Source: Candidatus Levyibacteriota bacterium (lineage in GTDB: Bacteria; Patescibacteriota; Microgenomatia; Levybacterales; UBA12049). From it: 64,000 nt of DNA. The position numbers and the translations under genes are program-made. Under the pieces are notes generated by a model. It did no database searches. It was not told where the DNA came from and was given only the letters and a program-made list of their open reading frames with translations. Positions 43,873 to 56,175 of this stretch are shown piece after piece. The stretch spans positions 124,707 to 188,706 of the forward strand of contig JAJDCG010000002.1 in assembly GCA_029260965.1 (NCBI GenBank). Direction: 5' to 3'. How positions within the stretch are numbered: the stretch's first letter is position 1; the number at the start of each line of letters is the position of its first letter.

Positions 43873-44061
43873 TAGATGAGTATAGCAGAATGCGAAGAGC
43901 CCTTGTCAATTGAGGTGGGACAGCATTTCTGACATGGAACTAAAGCGTCAAGAAATTCTTCCGCTTCAATTTTACTACGACGACATAGATATTAAAATTC
44001 TCCACTATGCGACAAGTGGTAACTTGTTTTCGCCTGGCGACAAGTACATTTCAGCCTAAAT

Positions 44062-44682
44062 ATGAATAACAAACAGATTAAAGCTAAAAACCACGAGAAC
44101 GACTTCATTAAACAGCACGTTACCGACGGTGTTTATCGAAAAATCGCTAAGGAACTGTCGGAAGCGGAAGACCCTAAAGGTCGCGGCAGAAAAATAGAAC
44201 TAACCGCCGAAAAACTTCATAATTTCCTATTCTATTTGTCTATGGGTGCAAGCTACAAATACGCCTCTGAATGGGCGCAAATCCCTGAAAACACACGACA
44301 AAAGTACATGGCAAAGTCAGAAGAATTCCGGCGGGTCGCTAGCCTGGCGAAAGCAAACGTAGAAATAGTAGCATTAGAAGTCCTGTACTGGGCTATGGTA
44401 GGGCGAAAACCTGGCTACTATGAATATATTCACCCGATTACCAAAGAACCTACCTATATTCTTCTTGACGCAATCCAGCCAAACGTTAAAGTAGCTATGT
44501 GGTGGCTAGATAAATGTCGATATTTTGAAAAACGAGAAGAAGCCGAAGCTAAAGAAAAAGGTTCAAACCAACTCGGTGCGCCACAAAACGAACATGAGGC
44601 TGAATTATTAGAAATGCTTATGAATCGACATTACGATTACGTTAAAAGAAAACAACAAGAAGTCACAACTAAAACTATCTAG
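44062..44682 (+). CDS. hypothetical protein, 206 aa (island-borne)
   Basis: GC-richer codons; basic or helical; no motif recognised. Confidence 0.5.
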   Translation: MNNKQIKAKNHENDFIKQHVTDGVYRKIAKELSEAEDPKGRGRKIELTAEKLHNFLFYLSMGASYKYASEWAQIPENTRQKYMAKSEEFRRVASLAKANVEIVALEVLYWAMVGRKPGYYEYIHPITKEPTYILLDAIQPNVKVAMWWLDKCRYFEKREEAEAKEKGSNQLGAPQNEHEAELLEMLMNRHYDYVKRKQQEVTTKTI

Positions 44683-44717
44683 GAATTCACCCTGGGTAAC
44701 TGTTATACTAATCTTAT

Positions 44718-45590
44718 ATGCAACAGAAGACAAAAAGCCTACTTGAAATACATATTGCGGTGTTACTTTTTGGTTTGGCAGGGCTTTTTGGGAAATTTAT
44801 TATCTTACCGTCGGCATTAATTGTTTTGGGTAGAGTTTTCTTCGCAAGTATCGCTTTAGGTGCTGTTTTACGATTTTCAAAACAAGATATTAGACTAGCT
44901 TCGAAAAAAGACTATTTTTTACTTGGACTATTAGGCATAATCTTAGCTATTCACTGGACGACATTTTTTCATTCGGTTCAAATTTCGACAGTCGCTATCG
45001 GATTGCTTACGTTTTCAACGTTTCCCGTATTTACAACATTTATAGAACCATTTGTATTTAAGGAAAAATTAAAAACTAAAGATATAGTTATCGCGTTGGT
45101 TACACTATTCGGGGTTGCACTAATTATTCCTACATTCGAATTAGGAAATAATGTTACACAGGGCGCAATTTGGGGAACTGTTTCAGGATTTACATTTGCA
45201 ATTCTATCTATCCTAAACAGAAAATACGTCAAGAAGTATTCAAGTTTAACAATAGCCTTTTATCAGGATTTAGTCGCCACTATTGTTTTACTACCGTTTC
45301 TTTTTTTCACTAACGCGTCATTCCATTTAAAAGATATTTTATTATTAATTTTACTAGGCGTGGTATTTACCGCTGTTTCCCACTCACTATTTATCAAAGG
45401 AATGACTCACATCAAAGCACAGCTCGCGAGTATCATTGCCAGCTTAGAACCTGTATATGGAATTATCTTTGCAATTTTTCTGCTGAACGAAATACCTACC
45501 GCACGAACTATCATGGGTGGAGTAATAATTTTAGGAGCAACCTTTGTAGCTTCAAACGACCAATTATTATCAAAGTTGAAAAAAGGGTAA
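44718..45590 (+). CDS. EamA/DMT-family transporter (10 TM)
   Basis: Two EamA-like repeats of about five TM helices each. Confidence 0.7.
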   Translation: MQQKTKSLLEIHIAVLLFGLAGLFGKFIILPSALIVLGRVFFASIALGAVLRFSKQDIRLASKKDYFLLGLLGIILAIHWTTFFHSVQISTVAIGLLTFSTFPVFTTFIEPFVFKEKLKTKDIVIALVTLFGVALIIPTFELGNNVTQGAIWGTVSGFTFAILSILNRKYVKKYSSLTIAFYQDLVATIVLLPFLFFTNASFHLKDILLLILLGVVFTAVSHSLFIKGMTHIKAQLASIIASLEPVYGIIFAIFLLNEIPTARTIMGGVIILGATFVASNDQLLSKLKKG

Positions 45591-45686
45591 GTCAAGTATT
45601 TGCACTATAACAAAACTATCTTATCCCTTGGTGAATAAGATTTGCTTTCCCAGCTTACTAAAAAGTTCTCACTTTGGCGATAAAAT

Positions 45687-47171
45687 TTACGCTTTTGACG
45701 CAGAAGGTTTATTGTCTTTTCTTGCGTCAATCAGAACGATATTTTCTATTCCTTCTAGTCCTAGCCTTTTAAGTATTCCTTGAACGCGTCGCAGTTCTTG
45801 AAAGGTAAAATAGATAATAACTTTGATACTTTTCTTCGTGTCATTTGCTTCTTCATATACACCTACCTGATTTTGCAAGTTCCTTTCAAGTTGGGTATTT
45901 GTAGCTAGTTTCAGTTCAACAAGACTTTTATCGGCTGAACCCTTAGATACTTTTACATCCACTGGGCCACGTCCATTGTTTACTTCGGTATTAAAATCAA
46001 ACGTAGAACCGCGCCAAGTAAGACGGTAGGCAATTTTTAAATCTTCTTCCCGCCGTATGGGTTCGTTATCTACATAGAAGAATCTATATCCGTCGTTGTT
46101 TTCAATAACTGATTTTAGGTACTGTACGCGTTGCATAGCTTCGTCGTATGAATCACAAGGTGTTTTATAAAAGTCTGTTTTTTCGGCAAGTAGTTTTGCG
46201 AAAGCCGTAAATTGGTCAACGTACATTAGTTCTGAATGCGTTACCTTTTGTTCGCTAATGCTCGTAGCTCTATCACCATTGTCTTCTTTATGTTTAATGT
46301 AGTAGTCAATCAGTTCGGGAAATGCCAGTATCGTCTTAACAGCGGCTTCTTTTTCATCCTTCTTTTTAGGGTCTTTTGGCAATACGCTTCTAAAATAGTT
46401 ATTAACTTTTGCACGCAGTTCATCATTAGAGATAGCATTCGGGATATTGTAAAAATCTTCAACTAAGTCATTTTTATTTATCCAGGTTTCATCTTTTGTA
46501 AGTAAGTCTTTTGGGGTCAAGATTACGAAATCATTTTGGTAAGACGGCAGTATGTAAGTGCCTTCTTCCCACGATTCCGTTTGATAGTTAAAGCGGACAC
46601 GAGGAATACGGAATTCCTGGCAAAGCATGGGGTCAAGATATTTCTTGGCAAATGCCTGGGTATATTGTAGTAAGAAGTCTAGGGTCAGATTAGTTGTGAA
46701 ATCGCTTATATTGTCTTTACCGACACCGTCTTTTATAAGACATAATTTCTCTAGGTGAGAACTTCTTGTTACCTTTTCTTGGCCGTAATCAGTGAAGATT
46801 TTGGCAAAGTTTTCGTTTAATGCTTTAGCAAAATCCGCCCCTAACGCGCTACCACTATTTCCATCAACAGAAAAACCTAGCCAGTTTTGTTTTACTTCTT
46901 TGAAACGATACCACGCGGCTAATAAGCCTTTATCTATTGGCTGGGAAATAGACTTGTCGCGTAAGAACCGTAAATAGGCAATCATTCCGTCATGCAACTG
47001 TTGGTATTCTGGCTTTTTACTATTAAAAAGAAGGAAAGGGTCAATGAATAATGGAAAATCAGCAACTAATGAAATATCAAAAGCCCCGTATTTGTCGAGT
47101 GCTTTTTTGTCAACATTGAAGTGGTCGGAAAAAAGTATTTTTGGCTGGGTATTTTCGGTATCGTTACTCAT
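45687..47171 (-). CDS. hypothetical 494-aa island cargo protein; its C-terminus has a possible PD-(D/E)xK-like motif
   Basis: Its start overlaps the Xis-like gene. ...GRGPVDVKVSKGSADKSLVELKLA fits hD...(D/E)xK spacing. No other recognisable domain. Confidence 0.5.
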   Translation of the reverse strand: MSNDTENTQPKILFSDHFNVDKKALDKYGAFDISLVADFPLFIDPFLLFNSKKPEYQQLHDGMIAYLRFLRDKSISQPIDKGLLAAWYRFKEVKQNWLGFSVDGNSGSALGADFAKALNENFAKIFTDYGQEKVTRSSHLEKLCLIKDGVGKDNISDFTTNLTLDFLLQYTQAFAKKYLDPMLCQEFRIPRVRFNYQTESWEEGTYILPSYQNDFVILTPKDLLTKDETWINKNDLVEDFYNIPNAISNDELRAKVNNYFRSVLPKDPKKKDEKEAAVKTILAFPELIDYYIKHKEDNGDRATSISEQKVTHSELMYVDQFTAFAKLLAEKTDFYKTPCDSYDEAMQRVQYLKSVIENNDGYRFFYVDNEPIRREEDLKIAYRLTWRGSTFDFNTEVNNGRGPVDVKVSKGSADKSLVELKLATNTQLERNLQNQVGVYEEANDTKKSIKVIIYFTFQELRRVQGILKRLGLEGIENIVLIDARKDNKPSASKA

Positions 47172-47352
47172 TGTTTGTTTTACCTTCGATAATCTTTTGA
47201 ACGTCTTCTGGCCTATATCTTCTATCTTGCCTTTTACCTATCCGAATGGCCTTTAAGCGGCCTTCATTGTCCCAACGCCTTAATGTTTCTGGGTTTACCC
47301 CCAACAATTCGGCCGCTTCCCTTATTCTTAACAGTTTTATTTTCTCTGACAT
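47164..47352 (-). CDS. excisionase/AlpA-family HTH DNA-binding protein
   Basis: AAELLGVNPETLRRWDNEGRLKAIRIGKRQDRRY matches the excisionase-family HTH. Confidence 0.65.
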   Translation of the reverse strand: MSEKIKLLRIREAAELLGVNPETLRRWDNEGRLKAIRIGKRQDRRYRPEDVQKIIEGKTNNE

Positions 47353-47386
47353 AACTTATACTAAATTATACATGTTTAGGCTATAA

Positions 47387-47800
47387 TTGGTAATAGGAAT
47401 TATGACTAAGAAAAACAAAAAATACGAACTTCCCGAATTTGCAGACGATATATTTATGCCCGACGATTTAATGAAGGTTCTTGTAAAGCGTAATGGGTGT
47501 ATGTATTTCTGGGGCATACCTTACAAAATCTACAAATCTAGTCGATTTCAGGATATGGAAGAACCGTACAAGGACGAAGATTTAGAGGCACTAGGTGGGG
47601 TTTTGTTAGATATTCTAGTACTTAATGGGCTTTCAATTGACTTCAAGCAAAAAACGGGCGTACAGAAGCTAAGCGTCATTGTACGGTCGTCTGAAAGCGA
47701 AGATAAACAGCTACTTCATAAATTGGCTACTGGGATTCGTGCAAATGACAAGCAATTGAATAGAGATAGCATTCCAGGAACTAATAACGACAATGAATAA
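47387..47800 (+). CDS. hypothetical protein, 137 aa (island-borne)
   Basis: ORF overlapping the integrase start by 8 nt. Confidence 0.45.
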   Translation: MVIGIMTKKNKKYELPEFADDIFMPDDLMKVLVKRNGCMYFWGIPYKIYKSSRFQDMEEPYKDEDLEALGGVLLDILVLNGLSIDFKQKTGVQKLSVIVRSSESEDKQLLHKLATGIRANDKQLNRDSIPGTNNDNE

Positions 47801-49583
47801 ACAACAGACTGCACCACTTCGAGCCGCCGTTTATCTTCGGGTATCTACTGACGACCAGATAGAAAAATATGGCATACCTTTACAGAAGGCGGCTGTTGAA
47901 GCGGTAGTTAATTCAAAAGGTAAACTAGACGACGGCTCACCCGCTATGGTTCTAGCTGGCGAACAATACATTTACAAAGACGAAGGGATTAGTGGTACTA
48001 CGCCACTAGAAGAACGGCCTGGTTTTGTACTAATGAAGGAAGATATTGAAAACGCGCTAGGTGGCGTAAAACCTTTTGATATTGTAGCCGTCTATCGTAT
48101 CGACAGATTCGCCCGTAAATTAAAAATCTTGCTAGAAGTAATCGACTATTTCGAAGCGCGCGATATTCAGTTCATTTCAGCCAATGAGAGCATAGATACT
48201 TCTACGCCATTCGGTAAAGCCATGCTAGGGATTATCGGTGTAATAGCCGAGCTAGAAAGGGAAACTACCAAAGCTAGAACACAAGCTGGTAAGGAACAAG
48301 CTATCGAACGTGGGGTGTATATGGGTGCAAGCGCGCCTTATGGGTACGTAAAGGACAAGGATAAGCGACTGCAAATTTTCCCGCCAGAAGCCGATATTGT
48401 ACGCAGTATATTTGAAATGTTTGTAGTTGAAAAAAGAAATACCCAGCAAATAGCCGACCGCCTTACAGATAAAAAGGTGCTTACACCCCTACCTTCCGCA
48501 ATTAAATACGAAAAAAGGAAAGCTGGACGGACAAAAGTTAATGACCCGTATTTCTGGCGTGATTCGACAGTTAGAGATATTGTCAAAGACGAAGTGTATC
48601 TAGGAATTTATCACTACAATAAAAACCAGGGAACTAAGCGGTTAGATAGGTCTTTATGGAAAGAATCACCATACCGCCACGGTGATATTGTTGACTTGGG
48701 TACTTTCGAACTGGCGCAAAGACGCATTAAAGAAGATATTGCCTTACGTAACAGTATGAAAACGGCTGATAATCACCTTTACCTACTATCTGGTCTATTA
48801 AAATGTCATGCTTGCTACGACCCCCATTCTGACCGTGACCCGCTTAACTGGACGGGTACGAGTAAAGTCATTAAGAAAAGTAATAAGCGCGCCTACTACT
48901 ACCAATGTGGAGCTAAGAATACTAAAAAATACTCTACCGTTTGTAAGGCTATACCATTTCCAGCCGACGAAATCGAACAGTTTGCAACTGACTTTGTAAA
49001 GAACCTTCTAAGCGACCCTGAAAGCGTCTATAACCATGTTAATTCCCTTCAATCAACCAAAGTTAAGAAACGGCTATTAGAGAAAAAACAGTCAGAAGTT
49101 ACCAAATTACTTAATGAACTACCGCGCCGACGCCAGAATGTGAAGCGAATGTATAAGCGCTGCGATATTGGCGATAGTGAGTATGACGAAGAAATGGAAG
49201 GTATAAAGGCAAAGGAAGCTGAATACAAGACAGATTTAGACGCAATACAATTGCAAATCGGCGAAAGCAAGCTGTCGGATATATATACCCGCACACTTAA
49301 ATTATTTGCAAAGAAGTATAAGCCTTTCCTAGACGGCTTAATGACTGATAGGCAAGAAGTATCAGAACTAATTCACCTTATTGTCGATAGAATCCACGTT
49401 TATACACGTAAGGCGACTAAAAACGACAAAATAGCGGGTCGGAAGAAGGAAGACCAGGTAATACCATACCAAGTTAGAATCGACTTACGCCTGCCACAAG
49501 ACATGATGAAACGATTTGCCCAGCAAGGCAAGTTCGAAGTCAAAAATGCTGAATTGTGGGCGCAAGAGGAGTCGAACCCCTGA
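47793..49583 (+). CDS. large serine recombinase (integrase)
   Basis: Resolvase catalytic domain with AAVYLRVSTDDQ (the Ser nucleophile), a recombinase domain, a Cys-rich zinc ribbon (CHACY...CGAK...C) and a coiled-coil. The last 9 codons are encoded by the tRNA-Val 3' half on the opposite strand. Confidence 0.9.
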   Translation: MNKQQTAPLRAAVYLRVSTDDQIEKYGIPLQKAAVEAVVNSKGKLDDGSPAMVLAGEQYIYKDEGISGTTPLEERPGFVLMKEDIENALGGVKPFDIVAVYRIDRFARKLKILLEVIDYFEARDIQFISANESIDTSTPFGKAMLGIIGVIAELERETTKARTQAGKEQAIERGVYMGASAPYGYVKDKDKRLQIFPPEADIVRSIFEMFVVEKRNTQQIADRLTDKKVLTPLPSAIKYEKRKAGRTKVNDPYFWRDSTVRDIVKDEVYLGIYHYNKNQGTKRLDRSLWKESPYRHGDIVDLGTFELAQRRIKEDIALRNSMKTADNHLYLLSGLLKCHACYDPHSDRDPLNWTGTSKVIKKSNKRAYYYQCGAKNTKKYSTVCKAIPFPADEIEQFATDFVKNLLSDPESVYNHVNSLQSTKVKKRLLEKKQSEVTKLLNELPRRRQNVKRMYKRCDIGDSEYDEEMEGIKAKEAEYKTDLDAIQLQIGESKLSDIYTRTLKLFAKKYKPFLDGLMTDRQEVSELIHLIVDRIHVYTRKATKNDKIAGRKKEDQVIPYQVRIDLRLPQDMMKRFAQQGKFEVKNAELWAQEESNP

Positions 49584-49630
49584 CCTTTACAATGTCAATG
49601 TAACGCTCTAACCAGCTGAGCTATGCGCCC
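49557..49630 (-). tRNA. tRNA-Val (anticodon GAC)
   Basis: Reverse complement GGGCGCATAGCTCAGCTGGTTAGAGCG TTACA-TTGACAT-TGTAA ...GGTTCGACTCC...TGCGCCCA; cloverleaf with the GAC anticodon. Confidence 0.85.
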
Positions 49631-50777: not shown

Positions 50778-52385
50778 TCAGACGAGCACTGATTTTATTG
50801 TTTCTCCCACCACAAGGTTTGTTCTTCCTTTCCGTTCTGTATCCAGTGCAAAATCTATAGCCTTTTCTATTCTAGCAGAGGCTAATTTCTTATCTCCAGT
50901 TAAAATCATCCCCGCAGGATTATCTGGCATTCGCATAAAAGCTCTGTGCTTTCCCCAACCATGGGTATAAGCGAGCTGATCTAATTCGTACATTTCGTCT
51001 CTAACGGCTGAAACATCCGCTCCTCTTAGGTCATATCCGTCAATTGTGGTAACGCCCTCCCATACAATTTTTTGTATTTCTCTAGGAGAGGGATATCTGT
51101 TTGTTAAGCCGGTAACAGCAAGAACCCCGTCAGTATAATTTGTAAATCTAGCGTTTGACTCAGCCACATAGTAACCGTATTCTTTGCCCATTTTTCGTCT
51201 CAGTTCTGCTTCCCTGGGGCCAGGAAGCATAATGTCTACATTCACAATTCCACTAATTTCCTCATATGATATTCCCCATTTTTTAGCTGTTTCTTTTATA
51301 AATGCTATGAAATCATCTGTTGTTTTTTCTTCATAAATTGCTTGAAGTCTTTTAAGATGAGGATTGTCAGGCTGGTATCTTTCTGTTCCTCTGCATGCCA
51401 TTGTTCCCTCTTGTTGTATTTGTCCGTTCCATCCTAAGCTTTCTTCATCGCCTTTGTTGATAACAATTGATAGTCCAGGTGAATCTACAATATCCATAAA
51501 CCTTGTTACAACAAATTGAGGATTTGCGTCTCTATTGAACGAACTATCCAAGATCCTTTTTGCTTCTTTAATAGCTTGTCTCCAGTTACCATTTCTGTAT
51601 ATTTTTTCCGTTTCTTTACCATCTACCTCTTCCGTTATTGGCTTACTATTAATAATTACGTGAATTCCGTCAGTTTTTTCGTAAATTATTACGTTTCCTC
51701 CATAGTTTCCATCAGATTCGTCAGCTCTAATTACGACTCCAAGAGGGTATGTGTTTGACATATCATGTTCTGTGTATAAATCTTGCGCTTCATTTAAGAC
51801 TCTGATGGATTCACGTTCTAACGTGTCAAGATTAGCAATACGATAATCAGGGATTTCAAATCCTCCAACTTGAGAATCTCTAACTATTTCATGAAAATTG
51901 ACTTTATTCTTTAGTTTCGTGACCATCTCAGGGGGTAGTCCCCATGATTCTTGACCGAGTGCTCTTATATCTGCTTGAGTATGAGATGTATGAATATATG
52001 GCACTACTAGTGTGTTTGCAGGATGATGACCATTTTGTATTTCTTTAAGTTCATAAACATTCAGTGCTCTTATCGCAGTTCCACTCAAATAGGCTGCGTG
52101 ATCACACACTCTTGAGGTTTTTCTCCGAACCAGTATTCCGGCTTCTCTCCTGCTCCAATCCAAAGCCCCAGCTCTTGGTCCATAATGTCCCTCAATTTCT
52201 AATGCCTCTTGAGGTGATACACCAGGAAGAACATGGTGGATGTTTTGCCAATGTAATGATATCTTGATTTCCACCCCATCAGATGTGTGGGATGGGAAGA
52301 TTGACTGGTCTCTTCCTCTGATTGTTTCTGTCCTACTCATAACAATAAAAAACCCGCTCATTTTGGCGGGTAATATAGTTGACAC
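50778..52385 (-). CDS. hypothetical protein, 535 aa
   Basis: Long clean ORF with moderate GC; no motif recognised. Confidence 0.5.
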   Translation of the reverse strand: MSTILPAKMSGFFIVMSRTETIRGRDQSIFPSHTSDGVEIKISLHWQNIHHVLPGVSPQEALEIEGHYGPRAGALDWSRREAGILVRRKTSRVCDHAAYLSGTAIRALNVYELKEIQNGHHPANTLVVPYIHTSHTQADIRALGQESWGLPPEMVTKLKNKVNFHEIVRDSQVGGFEIPDYRIANLDTLERESIRVLNEAQDLYTEHDMSNTYPLGVVIRADESDGNYGGNVIIYEKTDGIHVIINSKPITEEVDGKETEKIYRNGNWRQAIKEAKRILDSSFNRDANPQFVVTRFMDIVDSPGLSIVINKGDEESLGWNGQIQQEGTMACRGTERYQPDNPHLKRLQAIYEEKTTDDFIAFIKETAKKWGISYEEISGIVNVDIMLPGPREAELRRKMGKEYGYYVAESNARFTNYTDGVLAVTGLTNRYPSPREIQKIVWEGVTTIDGYDLRGADVSAVRDEMYELDQLAYTHGWGKHRAFMRMPDNPAGMILTGDKKLASARIEKAIDFALDTERKGRTNLVVGETIKSVLV

Positions 52386-55891: not shown

Positions 55892-55964
55892 GGACGATTA
55901 GCTCAGTTGGTAGAGCGCTTCATTTACACTGAAGATGTCGCGGGTTCGAATCCTGCATCGTCCA
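55892..55964 (+). tRNA. tRNA-Val (anticodon TAC)
   Basis: GGACGATTAGCTCAGTTGGTAGAGCG CTTCA-TTTACAC-TGAAG ...GGTTCGAATCC...ATCGTCCA. Confidence 0.85.
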
Positions 55965-55968
55965 CATT

Positions 55969-56041
55969 GCTGAGGTAGCCAAGGTGGTCAAGGCACCTGT
56001 CTGAAGAACAGGCCATGTCAGTTCGACTCTGACCCTCAGCA
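55969..56041 (+). tRNA. tRNA-Phe (anticodon GAA)
   Basis: GCTGAGGTAGCC...CCTGT-CTGAAGA-ACAGG...GTTCGACTC...CCTCAGCA. Confidence 0.8.
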
Positions 56042-56175
56042 CACAGCATTATTTGCTTATGCGTCCTCTTTGAATTTCTTATAACTGATGTTTTTCCTCA
56101 CTTTTTGCCCAAATTAATAGTTATAGGTTATGGTTCATTATTATTTCTAAGCTTGGAATTTATACACTATACGAC

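What the first reader, a model, noticed from the sequence alone, without database searches (positions are those of the whole stretch)
43880..49630. Serine-recombinase integrative element at tRNA-Val with the integrase C-terminus encoded inside the tRNA
A roughly 5.7 kb block of noticeably higher GC and different codon usage ends exactly at tRNA-Val(GAC). The large serine recombinase ORF reads into the tRNA 3' half on the opposite strand, so its last 9 codons are tRNA sequence. This is the arrangement expected when integration regenerates a tRNA 3' end. The contents are an Xis-like HTH, an EamA transporter, two small unknowns and a 494-aa unknown. tRNA-targeting is classic for tyrosine integrases and less typical for large serine recombinases, so the att site is worth defining.
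Basis: partly seen in the sequence, partly recalled or inferred. Interest (0 to 1): 0.6.

Follow-up and report, generated by a model that had tools for sequence, protein, structure and literature searches.

The report
Serine-integrase island inserted at tRNA end
A 5.6 kb mobile island in a candidate-phyla-radiation bacterium is inserted by a large serine integrase exactly after the last base of an intact tRNA-Val gene, and because the crossover site lies inside the integrase gene, insertion swaps the enzyme's conserved tail for a few codons of antisense tRNA.

Summary
[quoted passage not shown] Comparison with a 96%-identical element beside tRNA-Glu in another genome, with about ten further insertions, and with island-free relatives sets the element at 43915/16 to 49556/57 (5,641 bp). 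The 2-bp crossover GT equals A73 plus the next base on the tRNA strand.

The tRNA is entirely host DNA. GC is not raised, but tetranucleotide usage is an outlier.

The arrangement is family-wide in Patescibacteria: nearly every relative abuts a tRNA (Val, Glu, Lys, Ala, Gly, Leu). The element-side arms carry a T-arm-like GTTCGRRG motif 4 bp further from the core than the tRNA's own T-loop.

Read across the reconstructed attP, the LSR ORF continues for 47 codons (43916-44056). These codons evolve as coding sequence, have no start of their own, and have counterparts in distant lineages. The integrase gene therefore most likely spans attP and loses a conserved tail on integration, a serine-integrase counterpart of Mx8 IntP/IntX. 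No excised form was observed, and any function of the tail is inferred.

The parts
43890..43914 (.). attL, host B arm. This is the original tRNA 3' flank and includes the -35 TTGACA (43904-43909, minus strand) of the DUF5665 promoter.
   Evidence: It aligns base for base with the island-free relative L102 (tRNA...CCCA|CC|CAACTTGACA against the window reconstruction ...CCCA|CC|TCAATTGACA). Homology to other elements stops here.
43915..43916 (.). Crossover dinucleotide GT, left copy.
   Evidence: GT is the only dinucleotide common to attL and attR of the window, L003, L006, L088 and L091.
43917..43941 (.). attL, element P' arm (GGGACAGCATTTCTGACATGGAACT).
   Evidence: It forms an inverted repeat with 49531-49551 (21 nt, 86%, I12). 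It is conserved at the left end of 12 independent insertions.
43916..44059 (+). Orphan 3' part of the integrase gene: 47 codons (WDSISDMELKRQEILPLQFYYDDIDIKILHYATSGNLFSPGDKYISA) plus a stop. It is in frame with the LSR ORF only across the reconstructed attP and has no conserved start codon of its own.
   Evidence: The frame is open for 45-47 codons, against 5-8 in the other frames. Variable sites by codon position are 5/3/17, and pairwise changes are 255 synonymous to 113 nonsynonymous, against 17/296 and 35/274 in the other frames. Codon 7 is M, I or L. Database proteins that contain the peptide have unrelated, flank-derived N-termini. In-frame tails are present in 7 lineages.
44062..44682 (+). 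206-aa conserved element protein of unknown function, with a weak small-terminase / HTH-like hit.
   Evidence: No Pfam hit. phrog_4102 at E=2e-4. 92% identical in L003 and 65% in L006.
44718..45590 (+). EamA-family transporter, variable cargo.
   Evidence: PF00892 at 2.8e-35. In L003 it is replaced by HAD and histidine phosphatase genes.
45687..47171 (-). 494-aa cargo protein, a candidate anti-phage defence gene.
   Evidence: PADLOC PDC-M36A at 1.6e-21. phrog_30194 at 2.9e-41. Precomputed Pfam hits DUF8370/DUF8371. 97% identical in L003.
47164..47352 (-). 62-aa HTH_17 / excisionase-family protein, the candidate recombination directionality factor.
   Evidence: PF12728 at 1.5e-12. NCBIfam TIGR01764 'excise' at 35.3 bits, above the 28.8 cut-off. 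Conserved in L003, L006 and L009.
47387..47800 (+). 137-aa unknown protein. It overlaps the LSR start by 8 nt, so it is probably co-transcribed.
   Evidence: No family hit. 98% identical in L003 and 63% in L006, always directly upstream of the LSR.
47793..49583 (+). Large serine recombinase as encoded in the integrated state (596 aa). Codons 1-588 are element DNA; the last 8 codons plus the stop are antisense tRNA.
   Evidence: Pfam Resolvase, Recombinase and Zn ribbon. Catalytic S18 and four Cys are invariant. The AF2 body has pLDDT of about 80-90 with a long coiled coil. The best Foldseek matches are the SPbeta, Bxb1, phiC31 and LI integrases.
49531..49555 (.). attR, element P arm, lying inside the LSR coding sequence (codons KFEVKNAEL). 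It contains the T-arm-like GTTCGAAG at -24 to -17 from the core.
   Evidence: Inverted repeat with the P' arm. GTTC at -24 to -21 is present in all 22 family loci listed.
49556..49557 (.). Crossover dinucleotide GT, right copy. It is the complement of C74 and A73 of the tRNA strand.
49557..49630 (-). Intact host tRNA-Val(GAC). Its acceptor and T arm (49558-49582) serve as the B' arm.
   Evidence: It is orthologous to the tRNA at the empty site of L102, with compensatory acceptor-stem changes.

Best explanation
What is shown. Window 43915/16-49556/57 is a 5.64 kb integrative island. It belongs to a family that is widespread in Patescibacteria (CPR). The island is inserted without target duplication, precisely between the discriminator base (A73) of an intact tRNA-Val(GAC) gene and that tRNA's former 3' flank. 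The crossover is the 2-bp GT, which reads AC (A73-N74) on the tRNA strand. The enzyme is a canonical large serine recombinase. The same or a near-identical enzyme has used tRNA-Val(GAC), tRNA-Val(TAC), tRNA-Glu(TTC) and tRNA-Glu(CTC). More distant members use Lys, Ala, Gly and Leu tRNAs, and the core changes to GA where the discriminator is U.

What is inferred from anatomy.
- The excised circle carries attP = P arm (the last 25 nt of the element-encoded integrase coding sequence) + GT + P' arm.
- Both P arms carry a GTTCGRRG / CYCCGAAC motif that mimics the tRNA T-loop. The motif sits 4 bp further from the core than the genuine TCGAAC of the tRNA.
- This is the geometry expected if the zinc-ribbon domain reads the T-loop motif in both attP and attB. 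It would explain how one enzyme can accept many tRNA genes while the other host arm (B) has no recognisable motif.
- Because attP lies inside the integrase ORF, the circular form encodes a 635-aa enzyme with a conserved 47-aa C-terminal tail.
- Integration moves that tail to the far end of the element, where it has no start codon, and replaces it with 0-40 residues of antisense tRNA (8 here).

What is hypothesis. The full-length and tail-less isoforms differ in activity or directionality. On this view the full-length enzyme integrates, and the tail-less enzyme, together with the excisionase-like HTH_17 protein, excises or is damped. The physical state of the element would then set the form of its own recombinase, as in Mx8 IntP/IntX.

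Cargo is variable and often defence-like.
For: Boundaries and mobility.
- blastn homology with L003, L005 and L006 starts at 43914/5. The junction alignments agree.
- Island-free relatives L100 and L102 keep the synteny, and the reconstructed empty site matches L102 base for base in spacing.
- The L003 element is 93-96% identical in nucleotides but sits at tRNA-Glu in unrelated flanks.
- Tetranucleotide usage is an outlier.

Enzyme.

Family-wide tRNA junction.
- 22 of the genome loci L003-L030 have an opposite-strand tRNA at the LSR stop; the rest are mostly contig ends.
- Of the 120 closest homologues, all stop at or shortly after the junction or run on into antisense tRNA or other sequence, 35 of them through T-loop antisense (xSNP and similar). 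None carries the tail.

No tRNA duplication.

Core tracks the discriminator: GT with A73, and GA with the tRNA-Gly elements L014 and L016.

P/P' inverted repeat and T-arm mimic. The LI integrase ZD motif lies at positions 16-24 in attP and is shifted 5 bp inward in attB (PMC3783163).

Tail.
- Open only in the read-through frame, with a third-position substitution bias and no conserved start.
- An independent coding signal in L014/L016: variable sites 6/4/15.
- In-frame tails sharing a Y.L.F...(D/N)ID.(K/E)I block in L009, L012, L014, L016, L018, L021, L023 and L024.
- The predicted window peptide ranks 3rd of 1806 six-frame peptides against an HMM built from the distant tails only.
- Database proteins that contain the tail have random flank-derived N-termini.

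Excisionase-family HTH.

Cargo.
Against: - No excised (attP) form and no full-length 635-aa protein was found in viral contigs, JGI metagenome contigs, or the 5.8-billion or 1.8-billion protein sets. Excision is therefore inferred, not observed.
- No empty site was found in the same species; the closest island-free relatives have only 64% identical flanking proteins.
- Homology between the window's tail and the tails of distant lineages is not significant on sequence alone (HMM E = 0.83).
- In some distant loci I chose the left core partly by requiring an in-frame read-through.
- AlphaFold gives no confident structure or docking for the tail (pLDDT < 50), and the tail hits no known family.
- The host B arm shows no recognisable half-site, which is unusual for serine integrases.
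- The motif shift is 4 bp, not the 5 bp of the LI paradigm.
- The truncated enzyme keeps every canonical domain, so the tail may be dispensable.
- No transfer or replication genes were found, so how the element moves between cells is unknown.
Confidence: 0.72

Rival explanations
1. The element integrated inside the tRNA gene and carries its own copy of the tRNA 3' half, which regenerates the gene, as classical tRNA-targeting islands do.
For: The ORF does contain 27 nt of tRNA sequence, and tRNA 3' halves are the classical target of integrative islands.
Against: There is no displaced tRNA 3' fragment anywhere in the window, even allowing 3 mismatches. LSRs that are 81-98% identical abut tRNAs with different acceptor and T-arm sequences. 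Element homology ends at the GT, 1 nt outside the acceptor stem. The empty site in L102 shows the tRNA followed directly by the window's left flank.
Confidence: 0.03
2. The att sites and mobility are as described, but the 47 codons at the left end are not part of the integrase. They would be a small independent gene, or a conserved protein-binding or regulatory DNA segment (P' arm plus the promoter of the 206-aa gene), and the frame continuity across attP would be incidental.
For: No attP-form protein has been seen. Gene callers do predict small ORFs there. A weak promoter-like site lies inside it at 43971-43998. The first ~25 nt are constrained as the P' arm anyway. The cross-lineage HMM is not significant.
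Against: Substitutions are concentrated at third positions of exactly the read-through frame, well beyond the P' arm. No in-frame start is conserved: codon 7 is ATG, ATC, ATA, CTA or CTG. The N-termini of the called small ORFs are unrelated host flank. Frame continuity with the LSR recurs in about 7 diverged lineages, each ending after 29-49 codons with a shared motif.
Confidence: 0.15
3. The block is a degenerate prophage or phage satellite rather than an autonomous integrative island. The LSR would be a phage integrase remnant and the element would no longer move.
For: The LSR matches phrog_95 'integrase', and the 206-aa protein weakly matches a small terminase PHROG. No transfer genes are present.
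Against: There are no capsid, tail, portal, large terminase or lysis hits. No relative was found in 2.9 million viral contigs. All family members are small (4.5-11.4 kb), with intact LSRs and exchangeable cargo. Near-identical copies at different tRNAs in different genomes indicate recent movement.
Confidence: 0.05
4. The gene block is ancestral at this locus and not mobile (the refutation condition named by the first reader).
For: GC content does not differ from the surroundings.
Against: Syntenic relatives lack the block. Tetranucleotide usage is an outlier. The same element is found at other tRNAs.
Confidence: 0.02

Closest known systems
Phage and ICE large serine integrases (phiC31, Bxb1, A118/LI, SPbeta SprA, SCCmec CcrAB)
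   Same: Same domain architecture: catalytic Ser domain, recombinase domain, and Zn ribbon with a coiled coil. The best NCBIfam similarities are CcrB and XisF, both far below their cut-offs. The att sites are short, with imperfect inverted arms around a 2-bp crossover and no target duplication. A shared distal motif lies further out in the attP arms than in the attB arm, as in the LI integrase model (PMC3783163).
   Different: The target is the end of tRNA genes, and several different tRNAs are used per enzyme lineage, rather than one protein-coding gene. One host arm (B) has no recognisable motif. attP lies inside the integrase ORF, so the C-terminus changes on integration. The motif shift is 4 bp, not 5. 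Sequence identity to solved LSRs is only 13-18%.
Myxococcus phage Mx8 IntP/IntX (tyrosine integrase)
   Same: attP lies within the int coding sequence, so integration creates a recombinant gene with a new 3' end. This is reported to modify rather than inactivate the integrase and to act as a switch (PMC6070905, citing Tojo 1996 and Magrini 1999). From my own memory, the Mx8 attB sites are in tRNA-Asp genes.
   Different: Mx8 uses a tyrosine recombinase with a different mechanism and a longer identity core. It is a 50 kb phage in a proteobacterium. Here the enzyme is a serine integrase, only about 47 residues are exchanged, and no biochemical data exist.
Archaeal SSV1-type 'suicidal' tyrosine integrases
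   Same: The recombination site lies inside the integrase gene, so integration (typically into tRNA genes) partitions the gene. The element is an all-in-one module of integrase, att site and directionality control (PMC8371274).
   Different: Those are tyrosine recombinases. The split separates the catalytic domain and inactivates the enzyme. That review describes self-disrupting recombinases as exclusive to archaea. Here the catalytic and DNA-binding domains stay intact and the host is bacterial.
Serine recombinases already known to target tRNA genes: filamentous phage phiRSM1 (tRNA-Ser 3' end) and Mycobacterium AICEs (tRNA-Leu)
   Same: Serine-recombinase-mediated insertion at a tRNA gene, described as rare (PMC3218068).
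   Different: phiRSM1 uses a small resolvase-like enzyme. Each of those systems uses one tRNA. No T-arm mimicry, A73/N74 crossover or split integrase gene is described for them in the text I could read.
Classical tRNA-targeting genomic islands with tyrosine integrases
   Same: A small island with integrase, excisionase-like HTH and cargo next to a tRNA gene.
   Different: No tyrosine integrase, no direct repeat of the tRNA 3' part, and no regeneration of the tRNA.

Membership tests
Large serine recombinase (serine integrase) | N-terminal resolvase-type catalytic domain with the nucleophilic serine | tested here: met
   PF00239 at 8.7e-33. R16-V17-S18 is invariant in 40-67 homologues. The catalytic domain matches TP901-1, gamma-delta and Gin structures.
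Large serine recombinase (serine integrase) | Recombinase domain followed by a zinc-ribbon domain with an inserted coiled coil | tested here: met
   PF07508 at 2e-18. PF13408 scores 24.6 bits, just under its 25.3 cut-off. C338, C341, C372 and C384 are invariant. The AF2 model has helices 420-513. Full-length Foldseek matches to SPbeta, Bxb1 and phiC31 integrases have E of 1e-13 to 1e-21.
Large serine recombinase (serine integrase) | Short att sites with imperfect inverted half-sites around a 2-bp crossover, and no target-site duplication | tested here: met
   P/P' inverted repeat of 21 nt at 86%. Only GT is common to all attL/attR pairs. The empty-site spacing is identical in L102.
Large serine recombinase (serine integrase) | Distal (ZD) motif shared by attP and attB half-sites and shifted about 5 bp inward in attB | tested here: inconclusive
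   GTTC lies at -24 to -21 in P and P', against the equivalent of -20 to -17 in the tRNA arm, a 4-bp shift. No motif was found in the B arm. That the ZD binds this motif is inferred from PMC3783163.
Large serine recombinase (serine integrase) | Unidirectional attP x attB recombination, reversed by a recombination directionality factor | not testable with these tools
   Only candidates were found: the excisionase-family HTH_17 protein, the conserved 137-aa protein, and the exchangeable C-terminal tail.
Integrases whose attP lies inside their own gene (Mx8 IntP/IntX, SSV-type) | The crossover site lies within the integrase ORF, so integration changes or splits the protein | tested here: met
   The crossover lies at codon 588/589 of the ORF. 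The downstream 47 codons are found at attL in frame, with a coding-type substitution pattern and no start. This rests on a reconstructed attP, not an observed one.
Integrases whose attP lies inside their own gene (Mx8 IntP/IntX, SSV-type) | Tyrosine recombinase catalytic fold | tested here: not met
   The enzyme is a serine recombinase. It is therefore an analogue, not a member.
Classical tRNA-regenerating genomic island | Direct repeat of the tRNA 3' segment at the distal island end | tested here: not met
   There is no second match to the 29-nt tRNA 3' part with up to 3 mismatches. The distal end carries the P' arm instead.
Prophage | Virion, packaging or lysis genes | tested here: not met
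   There is only a weak (E=2e-4) small-terminase-like hit, and no other structural hits. No relatives were found in the viral contig collection.
Defence island / defence cargo | Carries a recognised anti-phage system | tested here: inconclusive
   The window's 494-aa protein matches only the candidate family PDC-M36A. Related elements carry a type I R-M system, AbiV-HEPN plus an OLD-like ATPase, DUF4238 and a SNase nuclease.

The most novel reading that the evidence does not exclude
A family of large serine integrases has placed attP inside its own gene and shaped the attP arms to mimic the universal tRNA T-arm. Two consequences would follow. First, one enzyme could insert DNA exactly after the discriminator base of many different tRNA genes without damaging them. 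Second, the element's physical state would determine which integrase isoform is made: a full-length enzyme with a conserved tail from the circle, and a tail-less enzyme from the chromosome. The tail would act as a built-in directionality or activity switch, which has not been described for serine integrases.
Probability: 0.4. Interest if true: 0.85.

Novelty: new variant of a known kind. Interest (0 to 1): 0.72.

Why it matters
Serine integrases are the main tools for inserting large DNA payloads, and their directionality control is under active structural study. This family would add three things.
- A target defined by the most conserved short DNA motif in biology, the tRNA T-loop plus acceptor end. 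That may allow landing at native tRNA genes in many organisms without disrupting them.
- A clear natural example of attP/attB discrimination by a shifted distal motif.
- A self-contained isoform switch, in which integration edits the recombinase's own C-terminus. This was known only for the tyrosine integrase of Mx8 and, in a destructive form, for archaeal SSV-type integrases.

It also identifies a common vehicle for defence and other cargo genes in CPR bacteria, whose mobile elements are poorly known. All of this is directly testable with synthetic att sites and two protein constructs.

Tried and rejected
- Searched for a displaced tRNA 3' fragment as an attL/attR direct repeat: none.
- Scanned viral contigs with the LSR and with the P' arm: nothing.
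- Scanned the metagenome for the P' arm: 11 integrated copies and 6 chance matches, but no attP form.
- Searched two protein collections for the tail peptide: only small mis-called ORFs, no full-length integrase.
- Ungapped search for P' arms by reverse complement of the P arm worked for only about half of the distant loci. The rest were found by a peptide motif or not at all, because the elements are probably longer than the 10 kb flank or are cut by contig ends.
- HMM of distant tails against the window's six-frame peptides: the right peptide ranks 3rd of 1806, but E = 0.83, so I do not claim sequence-level significance.
- Single-sequence AlphaFold was useless (pLDDT 38). The MSA-based model is good for the body and uninformative for the tail.
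- MAFFT misplaced the short tail ORFs in alignment A2.
- Exact look-ups of the flanking DUF5665 and aaRS proteins gave no island-free contig of the same species.
- tblastx of the L003 flanks against the window found no shared host genes, so host divergence could not be measured.
- The promoter and terminator scan found no more sites than in shuffled sequence.
- Pfam found nothing for the tails.
- Considered an inovirus-like prophage after a literature hit. Rejected because there is no morphogenesis ATPase or other phage genes.

Full report
**1. Checking the observation.**
ARAGORN and Rfam both find tRNA-Val(GAC) at 49557-49630 on the minus strand. The ORF at 47793-49583 (+) encodes 596 aa with Resolvase (8.7e-33), Recombinase (2e-18) and Zn_ribbon_recom domains. 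Its last eight sense codons and the stop (TGG GCG CAA GAG GAG TCG AAC CCC TGA, 49557-49583) are the reverse complement of the tRNA acceptor stem and T arm.

The listed genes are present: an excisionase-type HTH_17 of 62 aa, an EamA transporter of 290 aa, unknowns of 206 and 137 aa, and a 494-aa unknown.

GC is not raised. The block has 0.390 against 0.381 for the rest, and 28% of equal-sized control windows are at least as high. Tetranucleotide usage is a clear outlier: the distance is 0.026, against 0.0114 +/- 0.0019 for the controls, with a control maximum of 0.0156.

**2. Boundaries and crossover.**
A scan of one genome per species with an alignment of LSR homologues returned about 27 loci of the same family, all from Patescibacteria/CPR MAGs.

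L003 carries an LSR that is 98% identical. Its element is 93-96% identical in nucleotides to the window's, but it lies next to tRNA-Glu(TTC) in unrelated flanks. Homology of the window with L003, L005 and L006 begins at 43914/5. A metagenome scan for the left-end sequence added eleven more integrated copies, each in a different host flank.

Aligning the junctions gives the following:
- Left ends read flank|GT|GGGACAGC....
- Right ends read ...GAATT|GT|tRNA, or ...AACTT|GT|tRNA.
- GT is the only dinucleotide common to both ends of every element for which both ends are available (window, L003, L006, L088, L091).

In window coordinates the two copies are 43915-16 and 49556-57, so the element is 5,641 bp. 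On the tRNA strand the core reads AC, that is A73 followed by the first base after the tRNA.

**3. Empty sites.**
The closest relatives of the flanking M20 peptidase (64% identity) lie on long contigs L100 and L102. These contigs have the same gene order as the window: trigger factor, DUF5660, a ~520-aa protein, M20, tRNA-Val(GAC), DUF5665, class II aaRS, IF3, L35, L20, PheS and PheT. L102 lacks a called DUF5665 gene, but the sequence is there. Neither contig has anything inserted at the tRNA.

Joining the window at 43914|GT|49558 reproduces the L102 arrangement with identical spacing. L102 reads ...GGGCCCA CC CAACTTGACA...TATACT and the window reconstruction reads ...GCGCCCA CC TCAATTGACA...TATACT. 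The insertion is therefore precise, without duplication or loss, as expected for a serine recombinase.

**4. The tRNA is host DNA and is not regenerated.**
There is no second copy of the tRNA 3' part in the window. The C-termini of the 120 closest homologues all stop at or shortly after the junction or run on into antisense tRNA or other sequence, and 35 of them run through the T-loop (..DSNP....ESNP....NRTP..). The tRNA-derived tails differ among enzymes that are 67-91% identical.

In the genome loci the abutting tRNAs are Val-TAC, Glu-TTC, Lys-CTT, Lys-TTT, Ala-TGC, Leu-CAG, Leu-GAG, Gly-TCC and Gly-CCC; tRNA-Glu(CTC) is used in the metagenome locus L088. Where the discriminator is U (the tRNA-Gly elements L014 and L016) the core is GA instead of GT.

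The tRNA part of the ORF is thus a by-product of where the element landed.

**5. Anatomy of the att sites.**
The last 25 nt of element-encoded integrase coding sequence (P arm, 49531-49555) and the first 25 nt at the left end (P' arm, 43917-43941) form an imperfect inverted repeat (I12).

In all 22 family loci examined, the P arm carries GTTC(G/C/T)(G/A)(G/A)G with GTTC at -24 to -21 from the core. The P' arms carry the complementary (C/T)(C/G)(C/G)GAAC. This is the tRNA T-loop sequence (G53 T54 T55 C56).

In the tRNA arm (B') the genuine motif sits at the equivalent of -20 to -17, which is 4 bp closer to the core. For the Listeria LI integrase, the zinc-ribbon-domain motif occupies positions 16-24 of attP half-sites and is shifted 5 bp inward in attB (PMC3783163).

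I therefore infer that this family reads the T-loop motif with its zinc-ribbon domain, and that the 4-bp offset is what distinguishes the attP-type arms from the attB-type arm. This inference is not tested.

The other host arm (B) differs in every insertion and shows at most a T/G preference next to the core. In several loci it contains the displaced terminator hairpin of the tRNA.

**6. The integrase gene spans attP.**
Reading the LSR ORF through the reconstructed attP (…AAT GCT GAA TTG | TGG GAC AGC ATT…) gives 47 further codons, at 43916-44056, with the stop at 44057-59. The peptide is WDSISDMELKRQEILPLQFYYDDIDIKILHYATSGNLFSPGDKYISA.

In ten close elements:
- This frame is open for 45-47 codons, against 5-8 in the other two frames.
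- Variable sites fall 5/3/17 by codon position.
- Pairwise codon changes are 255 synonymous to 113 nonsynonymous, against 17/296 and 35/274 in the other frames.
- The only candidate start (codon 7) is ATG, ATC, ATA, CTA or CTG.

Proteins in public collections that contain the peptide are 46-105-aa ORFs whose N-termini are unrelated host flank.

In distant lineages (LSR 42-49% identical) where I could find the left end, the same construction gives in-frame tails of 29-49 codons:
- L009: ...EKYNLVLFCYNIDKEIQRIG...
- L012: ...EKYPLVLICYDIDKQIRRIG...
- L014 and L016: ...EKYNLTFI..N(I/L)DK.I.RIG...
- L018: ...HNLVLFCYDIDKQIRRIH...
- L021 and L023: ...DKYPLILTY.DID...
- L024: ...SRYHFIFTFSNISSKIRRVG

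L014/L016 again show a third-position bias, 6/4/15.

An HMM built only from these distant tails ranks the window's predicted peptide 3rd among 1806 six-frame peptides of the window. The E-value is 0.83, so the sequence similarity is suggestive and not proven.

Taken together, the most economical reading has three parts:
- The excised element encodes a 635-aa integrase.
- Integration cuts the gene at codon 588/589.
- The tail is left silent at attL.

**7. What the element is.**
Elements of the family are 4.5-11.4 kb. The close subfamily shares the tail segment, the 206-aa protein, the HTH_17 excisionase-family protein (TIGR01764, above its cut-off), the 137-aa protein and the LSR. The middle is exchangeable. 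Cargo by element is as follows:

| Element | Cargo |
|---|---|
| Window | EamA transporter; 494-aa protein matching PADLOC candidate PDC-M36A, phrog_30194 and DUF8370/8371 |
| L003 | HAD hydrolase; histidine phosphatase |
| L006 | DUF4238; DUF7380/DUF4209; an rRNA adenine dimethylase |
| L009 | Type I R-M system plus a Dam-like methylase |
| L024 | AbiV-HEPN plus an OLD-like ATPase-TOPRIM protein |
| L014 | DUF4238; SNase |
| L018 | HerA-like ATPase |

No virion, replication or conjugation genes were found, and there are no relatives in the viral contig collection.

The AlphaFold model built with 67 sequences is confident for the body. It shows the long coiled coil, and its best structural matches are the SPbeta, Bxb1, phiC31 and LI integrases. 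The tail is modelled with pLDDT below 50.

**8. Comparison with what is known.**
Integration of serine recombinases into tRNA genes is described as rare. The cited cases are phiRSM1 (tRNA-Ser) and a group of Mycobacterium AICEs (tRNA-Leu) (PMC3218068).

An attP inside the integrase gene that changes the protein's C-terminus on integration is established for the tyrosine integrase of Myxococcus phage Mx8 (PMC6070905). Gene-splitting 'suicidal' tyrosine integrases are described as exclusive to archaea (PMC8371274).

Ten full-text searches found no description of a serine integrase with either property in CPR bacteria, nor of the T-arm mimicry. The library is incomplete, so prior description cannot be excluded.

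**9. Verdict.**
| Claim | Status | Confidence |
|---|---|---|
| The observation | Real | - |
| Mobile-element interpretation | Right | ~0.95 |
| 'tRNA regeneration' mechanism | Wrong | - |
| att-site definition, including the A73/N74 crossover | Shown by comparison | ~0.9 |
| Integrase gene spans attP and loses a conserved tail on integration | Inferred from anatomy and substitution patterns | ~0.75 |
| The tail functions as a switch | Hypothesis | ~0.4 |

Excision itself was not observed.

Noticed in passing
L023 1-11860 (JAUIMI010000001.1): Upstream of one LSR plus tRNA-Val(TAC) there are five copies, 87-90% identical, of a 95-178 bp module. The module consists of a hairpin, the GT core, the P' arm and the tail ORF. 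Each copy sits at the 3' end of a different minus-strand gene (391, 584, 187 and 659 aa), so the region looks like an array of attL-like cassettes. The host-side hairpin is repeated too, which simple serial attP x attB integration would not produce.
   Followed up: partly
L102 895-2500 (ENA k119_304486, the island-free relative): A different serine recombinase of 513 aa, only 24% identical to the window's LSR, also reads its last codons into the 3' end of an opposite-strand tRNA (Leu-GAG). The tRNA-end arrangement may therefore extend beyond this one LSR family in CPR genomes.
   Followed up: partly
window 55892-56042: The window's own tRNA-Val(TAC) is the tRNA species used as attB by the 86%-identical LSR of L004. 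Here it is unoccupied and is followed after 3 nt by tRNA-Phe. It lies in a cluster Leu(CAG)-Leu(GAG)-Val(TAC)-Phe(GAA).
   Followed up: partly
window 49585-49614; L001 and L002: In the Logan assembly of run SRR15505512 the island contig and the M20-side contig both end inside the tRNA, with a 30-nt overlap. This indicates a branch in the assembly graph. It could reflect occupied and empty sites in the population, or simply other tRNA-Val genes in the sample.
   Followed up: no
window 43877-43909 (minus strand): A conserved promoter-like TTGACA-19 nt-TGCTATACT for the DUF5665 gene lies 5 bp from the insertion point and is also present at the empty site of L102. The insertion left it intact. The consensus scan missed it because of the 19-nt spacer.
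   Followed up: partly
window 45687-47171 (-): The 494-aa cargo protein matches the PADLOC candidate defence family PDC-M36A (1.6e-21), phrog_30194 and DUF8370/DUF8371. By eye, its C-terminal part has a D...ELK pattern reminiscent of PD-(D/E)XK nucleases; I did not test this.
   Followed up: partly
window 50778-52385 (-): A 535-aa protein with no Pfam hit is conserved in position next to the M20 peptidase in the relatives (516, 543 and 515 aa). It is a lineage-specific unknown.
   Followed up: no
L003, L005-L008, L011, L013 and other locus titles: Several CPR-type contigs carrying this family are titled 'uncultured Gammaproteobacteria/Pseudomonadales/Yersinia' in their public records, and one is titled Methanofastidiosum (L025). 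Their gene content and relatives point to Patescibacteria, so the taxonomic labels look unreliable.
   Followed up: no
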